This document shows positions 13,211 through 60,126 of a DNA stretch of 64,000 bases, one piece after another (within the stretch, counting starts at the first letter, position 1; each line of letters opens with the position of its first letter). A model generated the notes under the pieces. That model searched no databases. It was not told where the DNA came from and saw nothing but the letters and a program-made list of their open reading frames with translations. The position numbers and the translations under genes were made by a program. The stretch lies in contig OZ024750.1 of NCBI GenBank assembly GCA_964016885.1, positions 47,616,001-47,680,000 on the forward strand, written 5' to 3'. The stretch is from Eledone cirrhosa. Its lineage: Eukaryota.

Positions 13211-14388
13211 GTAATAATAATAAAATTGAAGACTAAAATCCAGAGAGGGCTCGATAAGGAAAATATATATCAAATATATAAGAATCGAAGAGCAAATATT
13301 TATTAAAATAACAGATTAAAGTTTAAGCAAAGAATCGCTGCTTTCACCCTTAACGGGATCTTCTGAAACTAACAAAGTCAATCTGTAAACACAGAACTGG
13401 ATATTTCAAAAAACGTTGCAACCGGAGGAAGACAGGAAGACGATACTTTGGTTCATGGTGACGTTCGCTGGCAAAGACCGGGAAAAAACGAATAATACGT
13501 CATTAATAGGAGCGGTGAAAAACAATTACGTGCAAAGACAAAACTACGTTTATGGTATAAAAGAGGTCGTAGACTAATGTTCTCTAAGTGGTGCATAGAG
13601 ACGTTCTCTGGCAATGAACGAAAAAACGAAGATAATAAGTCATATGTGGTGCGTGGAGAACAATAGCGTGCAAAGACAAAACCACGTGAATGGTATAGCA
13701 GAAGTCGTAGACTAAAATTCTAACTCAGAGACCGAATGAATCTCCGCTACAGAGTTAAGAACAAAGTAAATAAATACAAATACAGAAGTAATAGGATCAA
13801 ATAAATACATACACGCAAACAGATACGTACATACACAAGCATACGCAAAACCTTACCATCGGTATACAAAACCACGCACATATAAATATGTGTGTGTGTG
13901 TATGCTTGTGTACAAATAAATAAATAATTATATAAACGTATATAAGTAAATAAATACGTATATAACAAGCGCACACACATCCCTACAAATAAATACACGA
14001 TGGTGCGGAGACGTAAGTCAACTAAAACAAGAAGTACACCTACACACACCCACCATACGTACGAACTTGCATACTCACGCAGACGCAAAACTCCCATATA
14101 CACATAACCAAGCCCTAAATACCAGAATATGTAAACATTATACGCCACAACAGTCAAATATACGTACGAGAAGGTATACATACCTTCACAAAACATACGG
14201 GTAATATATACTTACCCATGCAAAAAGTAAAGGAATAAACAAAACATATACTTAGCTCCCACATCAAGACGTAAATATCCACGTGCTATCCGTTAGGCAA
14301 TTTCGGCTTGTAAACATAAATTTCACAAAACTTTCCTGTATTACAGCCCTACGTTATACCCTAACGGATAGCACGATCTATACGTGGA
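13211..14388 (-). mobile_element. 5'-truncated PLE family B: pLTR/3'UTR with a short 5' inversion
   Basis: Colinear and highly similar to 57587-58690, which lies directly downstream of a GIY-YIG ORF. Segment 14295-14388 is the reverse complement of 58657-58750. The 3' end lies in (TA)n. Confidence 0.85.
13320..13370 (-). ncRNA. Type I hammerhead-like motif with CAGAAGA (U4A) core
   Basis: AGTTT-CAGAAGA-T.CCC.GTTAA.GGG.T-GAAA-GCA.GCGATTCTT.TGC-TT-AAACT; stems I, II and III all pair. Confidence 0.65.
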
Positions 14389-15245
14389 GAGAGTGATTGA
14401 GAATACGAGAGAGAAACAAACTGATTGAACATTTAATTTATGCCAAGAAGTTATTTACTAAATGATTGCTGGTCACAGGTAAGGAACTTGACTAAATTCA
14501 AGGAAAGCAGAAGAGAAAAAGGACCATTTATCAAATCGGACAAAGTAAACAAGGTTTCATTTATCTTTCAAATTCCTGACAGAATCTGCTGAAAACAACT
14601 CCTTACAGAACCAGCGAAGGAACGGGAAATGAAATGTTTTGCCCATGGACCAGACATGTTTCCTAGTTCAGGAATAAAAGCCACGGCTTTCTGATCGAGA
14701 GTTCAATATTCTAACCACTTGGCCAAATGCCTCAAATACATCACGTAAGAATATAGGAACGTTTCAGAAGATGTGAGATGTAATATAACAGATAAATATA
14801 ATATAAATCTTTCTTGAATCCTTTATTAAACCATTAATTGAACTATATTCTAGATATGCTAATGCAGAATGTATATAGCTATCAAGGTGTTTTATGTACT
14901 CATAAGTATGTGTGTATTTATAACTTATGGTCCGGGTGTCTCGCTGTATTACATAGAAAGCCAAATGTGTCTCTCGTGGTAAAGAATGCCTGTGAATAAG
15001 GGGTGGGACATGTTACTTTGAGTGCACAGGAAAATAAAATAAGTATATATGTATGTATATATGTATAAATATGTATGTATAGATGTATGTATACATATGT
15101 AAATATATATACTTTATTTTTTTATTTGTTTTGTCAGATTAGTATCTGGAAACGTGTATTCAAACATATAGTGTTATACTTTGGCAAGGATATGCTGCCA
15201 ATAAAAACACATGCACCTGTTGGTTTTTACTTCAGTTTATTACAT

Positions 15246-15838
15246 ACTAGCAGTGGTACCCGGCGTTGGACGGGATAAGGTATTTTGGAACGCGGGCCGC
15301 CAACAGACCTACTCGTGGAAAAACTGCATGCCTGGACAATATGTATAGAAAATAAGCCAAATACTCTGATGGCTGGATACTCTTTAAGACTTTACTCGAT
15401 GAAGCAGGAATAATGCAGGTTTTCACCTAATGCGGGCCCTAGAGGATCAAGAAAATATTTTTTTTTATGTGCATAATATGCCTTAAAATTTCGGGAAAAT
15501 CGGCCAGCCGTAACGCCTGAAATAAGCCCTAAAAGGCTGAAAAAATGAAGTGCTTCACCTCATGCGGGCTCTAGGCCAACATAATGTTGGATTTTCTTTA
15601 CTCACGGTATGAATAAGAGACTGACTAATATATAGTTACAATTTCAAGGAAATCTTTCTGACGTAACGCCTCAAAAAACCCCTAAAAAGCTGAAAAGAAC
15701 GGAGTTTTTCATCTAGGGGATCACAAAATTAGAACATAAGTAATAAACATGCGAAGTGTGAAAAAAATCGGCTGGGTACTTCTCGAGTTTTAGGGATTAA
15801 ACTCACAGACACACGCACACACAGACAGACATCCTTAT
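15246..15838 (+). mobile_element. Non-autonomous Helitron/Helentron-like (Lep1/HINE-type) element with internal ~133-bp tandem repeats
   Basis: Starts ACTAGCAGTGGTACCCGGCGTTGGACGGG and ends AAAATCGG...GAGTTTTAG...CACAGACAGACA before (TA)n. It has duplicated TTCACCT.ATGCGGGC.CTAG and GTAACGCCT..AA...CCCTAAAA.GCTGAAAA blocks. The family call rests on resemblance of the termini only. Confidence 0.55.
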
Positions 15839-57586: not shown

Positions 57587-59330
57587 AGTAATAATAATAA
57601 AATTGAAGACTAAAATCCAAAGAAGGCTCGATAAAGAAAATATATATCTAATATATAAGAACCGTAGAGCAAATATTTATTAAAATAACAGATTAAAGTT
57701 CAATCAAAGAATTGCTGCTTCCACCCTTAACGGGATCTTCTGAAAGTAACAAAGTCAATCTGTAAACGCAGAACTGGATATTTCAAAAAACGTTGCAACC
57801 GGAGGCAGACAGGAAGACGATACTTTGGTTCGTGGTAACGTTCCCTGGCAAAGAACGGGAAAAAACGAATAATACGTCATTAATAGGAGCGGTGAAAAAC
57901 AATTACGCGCAAAGACAGAACCACGTTCATGGTATAAAAGAAGACGTAGACTAAAGTTCACTTAGGTGGTGCATAGAGACGTTCTCTGGCAATGAGCGAA
58001 AAAACGAAGATAATAAATCAAATGTGGAGCGTGGAGAACAATAGCACGCAAAGACAAAATCACGTAAATGGTAAGCAGAAGTCGTAGACTAAAATTCTAA
58101 CTAGAAGACTAAATGAATCTCCGCTACAGAGTTAAGAACAAAGTAAATAAATACAATACAGAAGTAACAGAAACATATAAATACATACACGCAAACATAT
58201 ACGTACATACACAAGCATACGCAAAACCTTACCATAGGTATACAAAACCACGCACATATAAATATGTGTGTGTGTGTATGCTTGTGTACAAATAAATAAA
58301 TAATTATATAAACGTATATAAGTAAATAAATACGTATATAACAAGCGCACACGCATACCTACATATAAATACACGAATGTTCGGAGACGTAAGTCAACTA
58401 AAACAAGAAGTACACATATACACACACCCACCATACGTACGAAGCTGCATACTCACGCAGACGCAAAACTCCCGTATACACATAGCCAAACCCTAAATAC
58501 CAGAATATGTCAAGATTATACGCCATAACAGTCAAATATACGTACGAGAAGGTATACATACCTTCACAAAACATACGGGTAATATATACTTACCTATGCA
58601 AATAAGTAAAGGAATAAACAAACATATACTTAGCTCCCACATCAAGACGTAAAATATCCACGTATAGATAGTGCTATCCGTTAGGGTATAACGTGGGACT
58701 GTAATACAGGAAAGTGTTGTGCAATTTATGTTTACAAGCCGAAATTGCCTCAGATTTTTTGTTTAAGATGTGGTCTGTGGCGTAGAGTATTTCCAGGGCC
58801 TCAGCGGCGCAGAGGTCACATGCTCATTTATTTCCGTTATACGATCTAACCCTAGCTAGGATCTCCCAGTGTAACCTATATTGGGTGTGGTTGTCTTTTA
58901 GACTCCAGATATAAGCTGAAAGTGACGTCATATTCCTTCTAAGAGGGTAACGAAAAGAATGGGTATGCATGTAAAGACGCTGCTTGAAACTATTGGCGGT
59001 TAACCCTATGTAGGCCCTACGGGACGTGGGTGTTACAACCTCACATTTGTAGACAATGTTACTAGAGAGGAGGCATTTCCTGGATAGGGTGCAGTCAGCC
59101 CGATTCCTACAATTACAGTTAGTACTAACTACAGGGTTGCAGGTGTTCCTACGGCTAGGTAGTTTAGCTAAATTTGAAGCTGTGATGTTATGTGCAAGGT
59201 TAGGAGTCGTAGAGTAAATCATTTTAATTGTATTTCTATTAAAAATGTTACTATATTTATGTGCAGGGAGAAAATGCTTCGTAATAAGGGAAAGAAAGAT
59301 CTTAGCTAATGGTGTGGCCACCTCCATATT
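57587..59330 (-). mobile_element. 5'-truncated PLE family B (GIY-YIG end + ~1.1-kb pLTR), (TA)n-flanked
   Basis: The endonuclease ORF is followed by the sequence shared with 13211-14297, and a degenerate HHR lies at 57697-57747. Confidence 0.9.
58674..59328 (-). pseudogene. PLE linker + GIY-YIG endonuclease with one in-frame TGA
   Basis: CNCRNRADCTL, IVYKC..AYIGLT..FKQRLYMH. Reading past the TGA at 58824-58826 gives ACDLCAAE..LNKKSEAISACKH.. up to the TAG at 58674-58676. Confidence 0.85.
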
Positions 59331-59922
59331 ATATACATAAACATTCACACACATGCAAACAGACACATACACACACACCCATAGTTATATATATATATGT
59401 ATCTATATATATACATGTATATATATATATATATATATATATATATATATATATATATATATATATATATATATATATATATATATATATATATATATAT
59501 GTATATATATATATATGTATATATATATGTATATATATGTATATATATATGTATACTTATATATACATACATATACATATATATATGTATATTAATTGTT
59601 TATATATATATATATATACATATATGTATATATATGTATACATATATATATATATATACACATATATACATATATATACATATATATATATATATATATA
59701 TATACATGTATCTATATATATGTATACATATATATATATATATATACATATATATACATATATATATATATACATGTATATATATATATATATATATATA
59801 TATATATATATATATATATATATATATATATATATATATATATATGTATATATATATACATATATACACATACATATATATATATATATATATATATATA
59901 TATATATATATATATATATATA

Positions 59923-60126
59923 TAACGGAGGAAATGCGGTAAGGAACCAGGTGGATCATAACGCACCAAAGTACTCAATACTTAGGGTAGTAGAGTGGGT
60001 AAAAGGAACGAGTAGGACCCCGACGGCTGAGCTCAAGCCGTTTCGACGGTTAATTCTGGACTCATTGAGGCCAGAATTAGCCGTCGAAACGGCTTGAGCT
60101 CAGCCGTCGGGGTCCTTCTCGTTCCT
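59923..60126. mobile_element. Family C fold-back + tail whose axis coincides with a putative HHR stem II
   Basis: Arms about 60004-60059 and 60071-60126, each reading GAAA-CGGCT.TGAGCTC.AGCCG-TC-GGGGTCC. Confidence 0.85.

What the first reader, a model, noticed from the sequence alone, without database searches (positions are those of the whole stretch)
13244..59978. Conserved GAGYRCYYT-like motif in the 3' tails of otherwise unrelated families
Seen on the element sense strand: TTGAGTACCTT (27661; 29824-29834 minus), TTGAGTACTTT (30416; 59968-59978 minus), TTGAGTACTCT (28258, 28811), TTGAATACTCT (23417), TAGAGCACTCT (23191), TAGAGTGCTTC (52150, family A), TCGAGCCCTCT (13244-13254 minus, family B) and TTGAGTTCTTC (16201). 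It usually lies 20-60 nt after the pLTR end and 40-60 nt before the (TA)n junction. I know of no description of this motif. Inference: it is a cis signal for RT/endonuclease recognition, or a downstream promoter element, since in tandem copies the tail is also the leader of the ORF.
Basis: partly seen in the sequence, partly recalled or inferred. Interest (0 to 1): 0.75.

Follow-up and report, generated by a model that had tools for sequence, protein, structure and literature searches.

The report
Twin RNA stems mark Penelope ends
The motif is one strand of a small paired stem that occurs twice in a known group of jumping genes (Hydra-type Penelope elements), a few bases after each of the two places where inserted copies end, so it likely tells the copying enzyme where to start and would explain the extra 'tail' seen on one end of these insertions.

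Summary
All 11 strings are at the stated places, but they are not a free-standing linear motif and the families are related: nearly all are Hydra-clade Penelope-like elements (PLEs). The motif is the 3' strand of a stem: RCTC + variable helix/loop + 2-nt bulge + GAGY, then unpaired RCYY. Pairs covary between families (A-T/G-C; C-G/T-A). Read-through copies show the stem twice between hammerhead and ATG. In 9 families, 212 of 231 mapped (TA)n copy ends start 3-12 nt before one of the two stems, so tail length equals stem spacing (67-144 nt). 67 of 69 two-armed insertions use each site once. The stem also occurs in two metagenome elements (twice each) and, read by eye, in published coral and sea-cucumber consensi; 19 of 19 Neptune-clade ends lack it. 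Best reading (inferred, 0.7): each stem docks the telomerase-like RT and sets one of two priming sites. No RNA or binding data. One family has a reduced second stem. This scan reported the hairpin before in this genome; its summaries do not mention the doubling. I found no description in print.

The parts
52018..52088 (+). Hammerhead ribozyme motif of the family A pLTR
   Evidence: CTGATGA...GAAA core with stems; cleavage not tested
52124..52130 (+). End site 1 (tail-less copies join (TA)n here; TAT microhomology)
   Evidence: modal end 7 nt before stem 1, 18 of 21 site-1 ends; window end at 56021
52131..52159 (+).
52210..52220 (+). End site 2 (tail end; tailed copies join (TA)n here)
   Evidence: modal end 7 nt before stem 2; loose (TA)n ends at 52214 in DNA runs X1 (25 contigs) and at 52215 in X5
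52221..52242 (+). Family A stem 2: GCTC-CT-loop-GG-TT-GAGC-GCTT, in the leader, absent from tailed ends
52293..54695 (+). Intact Hydra-clade PLE ORF (RT + C-terminal GIY-YIG-type nuclease), 800 aa from this Met
   Evidence: fold model's best PDB match is TERT
47371..49773 (-). Second, identical family A ORF (inverted arm of the same 10-kb insertion)
49907..49935 (-). Family A stem 1
49824..49845 (-). Family A stem 2
46010..46038 (-). Family A stem 1 in the tail that ends at 45960
13244..13293 (-). Family B stem 1 (GCTC-T...A-TC-GAGC-CC); tail ends near 13211
   Evidence: context; read-through copies with stem 2 and ORF
16126..16210 (+). Stem 1 of the 16201 family (ACTC-TGTA, long loop, TACA-TT-GAGT)
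   Evidence: second stem seen in one read-through copy, L059
23176..23201 (+). Decayed stem 1 (GCTA instead of GCTC) of the family represented by L109
23399..23426 (+). Stem 1 of the 30416 family, GAG changed to GAA in this copy
27648..27670 (+). Stem 1 of the 27661 family (ACTC-TGC...GTA-TT-GAGT)
   Evidence: reduced stem 2
28240..28268 (+). Older copy related to the 30416 family; core stem intact, inner helix decayed
28757..28820 (+). Stem 1 of the 28811 family (5-bp inner helix, long loop)
   Evidence: stem 2 found blind
29825..29847 (-). Stem 1 of the 27661 family
30398..30425 (+). Stem 1 of the 30416 family (ACTC-TACT...AGTA-TT-GAGT)
   Evidence: stem 2 and ORF in L181
59969..59996 (-). 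Stem 1 of the 30416 family
32256..32305 (+).
36769..36797 (+).
56810..56836 (+).

Best explanation
The motif is the 3' strand of a bulged stem that Hydra-clade Penelope-like elements carry twice after their hammerhead, one copy just behind each of the two sites where inserted copies end, and each stem likely docks the element's reverse transcriptase on the RNA and fixes where copying starts. Shown in sequence: the stem, its covariation, its doubling, the 3-12 nt offset, the one-site-per-arm rule. Inferred: a read-through transcript (pLTR, tail, leader of the next tandem copy) binds the protein at both stems, probably as a dimer; the nuclease cuts both strands of a (TA)n target; each freed 3' end pairs with 1-4 bases of a UA(U) word a few bases 5' of a stem and primes cDNA; the two cDNAs are joined head to head. 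One arm thus lacks the tail (site 1), the other has it (site 2), the tail is the distance between the stems, and stem 2 is never copied at that end, so it survives only in partial tandems. In effect this would be programmed twin priming with telomerase-like positioning of a short alignment region next to an RT-binding stem.
For: Doubling found without asking for it in 4 of 4 families reached by protein search that had an intact leader (A, B, L109, L170 types), in 2 of 2 families whose tail search gave read-through copies and in the one read-through copy of the 16201 family; three more references came from a pattern that required two motifs. 212 of 231 ends in 9 families start 3-12 nt before a stem, mode 6-8, against 41 of 259 TA dinucleotides in the same references. 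With the 5' arm located from the modal end and not from pairing, 18 of 18 stems pair over the 4-bp core and the first inner pair; outer pair A-T 6 / G-C 12 (permutation P 2e-4), first inner pair C-G 12 / T-A 6 (18 vs 14.0 expected); 14 of 14 real segments pass the descriptor against 0.16% of dinucleotide shuffles. 67 of 69 two-armed insertions pair a site-1 with a site-2 arm, 12 of 13 in the unselected sample plus window. Other organisms: L341 has both stems and an inverted tail end 9 nt before stem 2; L342 has two, one with a compensatory core change (GTTC/GAAC). Published consensi read by eye: Hydra-2_Amil, Hydra-2_Ajap (one stem in the tail), Hydra-1_Ajap (two in the leader) (PMC8557442 File S7). 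A 1.3-kb unit without RT keeps both stems. For a Poseidon PLE in vitro, both strands are cut and extended, RT starts at two internal sites that bound the tail, RNA 3' of the start is needed, and a dimer is predicted (PMC11167929, parts 1-2 of 4 read). G-U exceeds A-C in the helices, 45 to 14 over copies.
Against: No RNA, binding or RT data for any Hydra element. In the 27661 family stem 2 is reduced to GCAC-loop-GTGC without bulge or inner helix, and its site-1 ends scatter 5-19 nt before the stem. Many second stems have only 1-2 inner pairs and are predicted weak (inner pair 2: 13 of 18; pair 3: 10 of 18, P 0.05). One family (L184) has only 3 of 10 ends in the zone (6 fall at an internal TA run). 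Strand polarity is weak: G-U 3 vs A-C 2 at family level, and 19 of the 45 G-U counts come from one family. The permutation test ignores descent and counts two sister pairs. Many loci were picked for having a tail, which hides site-1/site-1 insertions. Of six published consensi, three are clear, two are variants (Hydra-1_Amil, Hydra-1_Crog) and one (Hydra-1_Obim) shows none in what it covers. The Poseidon RNA fragment in the paper's Fig. S1 text shows no such stem, its starts lie in a loop without homology to the target, and a Neptune family has two end sites without a doubled stem: other PLEs make tails without this element.
Confidence: 0.7

Rival explanations
1. The stems guide cutting rather than priming: the RNA, or a cDNA/fold-back intermediate, is cut or resolved a few bases 5' of each stem (by the element's nuclease, a host nuclease or self-cleavage), and the ends so made become the insertion ends.
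For: Craig et al. ascribe the tail to nuclease-mediated resolution of an intermediate (PMC8557442 passage). It predicts the same fixed offsets. Many short insertions are near-perfect fold-backs (rough script).
Against: Ends sit at UA(U) words that match the (TA)n target, as priming needs. Both sites have the same geometry and are used once each. Both sites were RT starts on uncut RNA for a Poseidon PLE. No Rfam ribozyme family matches, and the element is small with a loop of free length.
Confidence: 0.14
2. The stems mainly control translation or RNP assembly of the ORF (the protein binds its own leader), and the end positions follow only indirectly.
For: Stem 2 lies 26-69 nt before the first ATG in coding families. 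A second role is not excluded.
Against: Distance to the copy end is much tighter than to the ATG; stem 1 is far from the ATG yet has the same offset; a non-coding family keeps both stems.
Confidence: 0.07
3. A double-stranded DNA element: a downstream promoter element, or a site read by the nuclease in the element's own DNA.
For: In tandem copies the tail is the leader. The D. virilis Penelope nuclease needs the tail to cut element DNA (as cited in PMC11167929).
Against: Compensatory pairing across 12-110 nt is not a property of a linear DNA site; the letters change (GAGT, GAGC, GAAC, GTGC) while pairing holds; Hydra targets are (TA)n without the motif.
Confidence: 0.06
4. No function: shared ancestry or chance matches near abundant microsatellites.
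For: The linear word alone is only about twofold enriched after collapsing (22 of 202 clusters) and is near-palindromic.
Against: Tails do not align between most families while the doubled stem, its pairing and its offset persist, also in other animals.
Confidence: 0.03

Closest known systems
Hydra clade of Penelope-like elements (Craig et al. 2021, PMC8557442; section 11, passages and supplement parts 1, 2, 52, 53 read)
   Same: RWK-like and DKT motifs, CxCX5C linker, C-terminal nuclease without CCHH, hammerhead in the pLTR, (TA)n targets, tandem and inverted insertions; the stem is visible in three of its six new consensi.
   Different: The parts read describe no motif or structure in the tail; tails here are 67-144 nt, not 30-40.
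Poseidon element PAc of Anolis: internal RT initiation (Frangieh et al. 2024, PMC11167929; parts 1-2 of 4, supplements 1 and 3 read)
   Same: Two internal start sites that bound the tail; both target strands cut and extended; RNA 3' of the start required; predicted dimer.
   Different: PAc starts in an AC-rich stem-loop with no homology to the target and inside the ORF; no doubled element is described. Here each site has its own copy of one conserved stem, upstream of the ATG, with 1-4 nt of UA(U) match to the target.
Twin priming of L1 (recalled, not from a call)
   Same: Both target ends prime on the element RNA and give an inverted insertion.
   Different: In L1 the second primer anneals at variable internal places; here both places are fixed and marked by a stem.
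RT-positioning RNA elements: telomerase RNA elements beside the template, hepadnavirus epsilon, R2 3' UTR (recalled; HBV epsilon review seen only as a listing)
   Same: A structured RNA element binds the RT and fixes the start on a short template; the protein's best fold match is TERT.
   Different: No sequence or Rfam match; single elements there, a doubled one here; analogy only.

Membership tests
Hydra-clade PLE | Single ORF, RT followed by C-terminal GIY-YIG nuclease | tested here: met
   800-aa ORF; RT fold with TERT as best match; IY..YFG nuclease core aligns with homologues. Pfam gave no hit for the ORF.
Hydra-clade PLE | RWK motif and DKT in place of DKG | tested here: met
   RLRWT (RWK/RWR in sister families) and SDKT
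Hydra-clade PLE | CxCX5C linker; CCHH absent; CxxC and CxH near the end | tested here: met
Hydra-clade PLE | Hammerhead in the pLTR | tested here: met
   core and stems by pattern; below Rfam thresholds; cleavage untested
Hydra-clade PLE | Insertion into (TA)n; tandem and inverted structure with one-sided tail | tested here: met
Hydra-clade PLE | Placement inside the clade in an RT tree with reference elements | not tested
RT-binding / initiation element | Binds the RT and sets the start site; loss and compensatory rescue | not testable with these tools
   positional and covariation evidence only
Known Rfam RNA family (ribozyme, SECIS, snoRNA) | Covariance-model match at the gathering score | tested here: not met
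   window 52000-52300 and L341 leader: nothing near a cut-off; whole window: the 150 listed of 210 matches were all below gathering, nearly all microsatellite noise
Downstream promoter element | Fixed distance from a transcription start | not testable with these tools
   no RNA holder listed
Pan-PLE tail signal | Present in other PLE clades | tested here: not met
   0 of 19 Neptune-type ends (mostly tail-less ends), one Neptune family read through to its ORF, PAc fragment

The most novel reading that the evidence does not exclude
Hydra PLEs integrate by programmed twin priming: two copies of one RNA stem each load one subunit of a telomerase-like RT dimer, each subunit primes from one cut strand of (TA)n on a short UA alignment word, and this one arrangement produces the inverted arms, the one-sided tail, the need for partial tandems and the mobilisation of non-coding hammerhead repeats that keep both stems.
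Probability: 0.5. Interest if true: 0.82.

Novelty: new variant of a known kind. Interest (0 to 1): 0.68.

Why it matters
How PLEs choose where to start copying, and why insertions carry a tail on one arm, is an open question; the one in vitro study mapped two start sites but no element that sets them. A 20-nt stem, doubled and conserved across animals, gives exact point, compensatory and spacing mutants for a direct test, with an intact, high-copy 800-aa protein at hand (at least 56 matches at 99-100% identity). It also gives a marker for Hydra leaders and for non-coding passengers, and a point of comparison with telomerase, the nearest relative of PLE RTs.

Tried and rejected
Rfam: no family. 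Pfam: no hit for the PLE ORFs. RNA: no RNA holder listed; no evidence either way. Complex prediction for a dimer was not available. Free folding of whole tails often misses the stem, so the structure rests on covariation, not energy. Motif-blind clustering of 1205 junctions chained 578 into one low-complexity cluster and was replaced. The double-motif pattern gave 2794 matches against 804 for the reversed control, with 21 of its 30 loci from one unrelated tandem array; used only to find leaders. Tail searches for the 27661 and 16201 families gave no read-through copy in 25 loci each. mis-assigned stem 2 of the 28811 family; corrected. The 27661 and 16201 families are not in the 212 of 231 count, as their second stems were not yet known. 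A fresh held-out sample could not be obtained; the substitute set gave only 3 ends, 2 in the zone, which says little. The arm-length script was too rough to say which arm is longer. Metagenome locus L343 ends at (TA)n without a stem, like a tail-less end, and tests nothing. Literature searches showed no description of the motif; subscription papers, Repbase reports, figures, the PAc GenBank file and bioRxiv supplements were not seen and could hold one.
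Full report
1. Observation. All 11 strings are at the given positions. The window lies in a 3.0-Gb animal genome and is full of (TA)n runs. The written consensus fits 7 of the 11 sites and also hits places far from any junction. In 780 kb of evenly spaced stretches, 85 of 595 GAGYRC hits lie 30-100 nt before a (TA)5+ run, a zone that holds 5.1% of positions. Collapsed into 202 clusters, 22 are near a run, about twofold over expectation; with the upstream stem required, 9 of 13 are. 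The linear word is therefore a weak marker and the stem a strong one.

2. The elements. [quoted passage not shown] These are the marks of the Hydra clade in Craig et al. 2021 (PMC8557442, section 11). The fold model (pLDDT 80.7) matches TERT best. Hammerhead cores lie upstream of most motif sites. The window's families have tails that do not align, but those linked to an ORF all lead into Hydra-type RTs, mostly 22-55% identical in the N-terminal part. The motif is shared by descent.

3. What the motif is. Upstream of each GAGY lies RCTC, followed by a short helix whose letters differ by family and pair with the letters before a 2-nt bulge: CAGT/ACTG, TACT/AGTA, TGC/GTA, CGTAA/TTACG, TGTA/TACA. 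The enclosed loop varies from a few to about 90 nt. To avoid choosing arms by their pairing I located the 5' arm from the modal copy end: 18 of 18 such stems pair across the core and the first inner pair, with two covarying positions; 14 of 14 segments pass the descriptor against 0.16% of shuffles. Deeper inner pairs are weaker (13, 10 and 10 of 18). The bases after the stem (RC, then pyrimidines) are conserved and unpaired, as expected of a protein contact (inference). The permutation ignores descent and includes two sister pairs.

4. The stem is doubled. Full-length copies reached by protein search show a second stem just after the tail end in families A, B, L109 and L170. Tail searches that did not ask for it found it in the 28811 family and the L039 family, and one random locus shows it for the 16201 family. 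A motif-based pattern added the 30416 family and two relatives of family A. The 27661 family is a partial exception: its second stem is GCAC-loop-GTGC, paired but without bulge.

5. Copy ends follow the stems. Of 231 ends mapped on 9 references, 212 start 3-12 nt before a stem (mode 6-8), whereas only 41 of 259 TA dinucleotides of those references lie there. Modal ends sit at UA(U) words that match the target by 1-4 bases. Stem spacing, 67-144 nt, equals tail length. Independent DNA runs show loose (TA)n ends at 52214-52215, about 7 nt before stem 2. In 67 of 69 two-armed insertions one arm ends at site 1 and the other at site 2; many of these loci were picked for a tail, but the unselected sample plus window gives 12 of 13.

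6. Other organisms and controls. Metagenome locus L341 has both stems and an inverted tail end 9 nt before stem 2; L342 has two stems, one with a G-C first inner pair and one with a compensatory core change. Read by eye in File S7 of PMC8557442: clear stems in Hydra-2_Amil (coral), Hydra-2_Ajap and, twice, Hydra-1_Ajap (sea cucumber); variants in Hydra-1_Amil and Hydra-1_Crog; none in Hydra-1_Obim as far as it reaches. Neptune-type elements of this genome lack it in 19 of 19 ends and in one family read through to its ORF, so the element looks clade-specific.

7. Mechanism. Frangieh et al. 2024 (PMC11167929) showed for a Poseidon PLE that both target strands are cut and extended, that RT starts at two internal sites that bound the tail, that RNA 3' of the start is needed, and predicted a dimer. 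Carrying this over (inference), each Hydra stem would dock an RT subunit so that a cut (TA)n end pairs with the UA word just 5' of it. One priming per stem gives two arms, one with and one without the tail; stem 2 is never copied at that end, which fits its survival only in partial tandems. A 1.3-kb unit without RT keeps both stems, as a passenger should. The main rival is that the stems guide cutting of RNA or of an intermediate; it predicts the same offsets and only bench work separates the two. Translation control and a promoter element fit worse, because the distance to the first ATG varies from 9 to 69 nt and the conserved feature is pairing.

8. Novelty. Six literature searches and the passages read in PMC8557442, PMC11167929, PMC3846280, PMC4209133 and bioRxiv 10.64898/2026.07.22.740005 show no description of this stem; unseen sources may hold one. 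Rfam has no match. This scan noted the hairpin and the short/long end rule before on other stretches of the same genome; I had reached my reading before seeing those notes, they are not independent support, and their summaries do not mention a second stem. The elements are members of a known clade; the doubled stem is an apparently undescribed cis element that makes an open mechanistic question directly testable. Interest 0.68.

Noticed in passing
window 45960-56021: One 10-kb family A insertion: two inverted partial tandems with two identical intact ORFs; at least 56 matches at 99-100% protein identity in the genome, so a very recent burst.
   Followed up: partly
L292:1669-2960 and related loci L286-L310: A 1.3-kb tandem unit with a hammerhead and both stems but no RT: a retrozyme-like passenger of Hydra elements.
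   Followed up: partly
window 29663-29739 and 40720-40795; L344-L358: Ends of a Neptune-type family with two end sites about 40 nt apart; a long predicted stem encloses the second site, and a small CTC-loop-GAG hairpin follows it. Possibly a different solution to the same task.
   Followed up: partly
window 22006 (+) and 15931 (-): Hammerhead-bearing, (TA)n-linked families without the stem; clade not determined.
   Followed up: no
window 29785-29974, 28466-28895; L261-L285: Many short insertions are near-perfect fold-backs whose two arms share one 5' end, close to the hammerhead in the shortest ones.
   Followed up: partly
window 54035-54260: Family A has an insert of about 70 aa, rich in Asn/Ser/Pro and unstructured in the model, between RT and nuclease, absent from homologues.
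   Followed up: no
L190-L210: A 54-bp tandem array that contains GAGTRCCTTT and ACTC in each unit matched the double-motif pattern; no link to PLEs was checked.
   Followed up: no
window 5519-10768: Broken RT-encoding non-LTR retrotransposon fragments (RVT_1 hit at 7063-7992), unrelated to the motif.
   Followed up: no
window 61486-63646: A further, frameshifted Hydra-type ORF, 47% identical to family A; its tail and leader were not traced.
   Followed up: no
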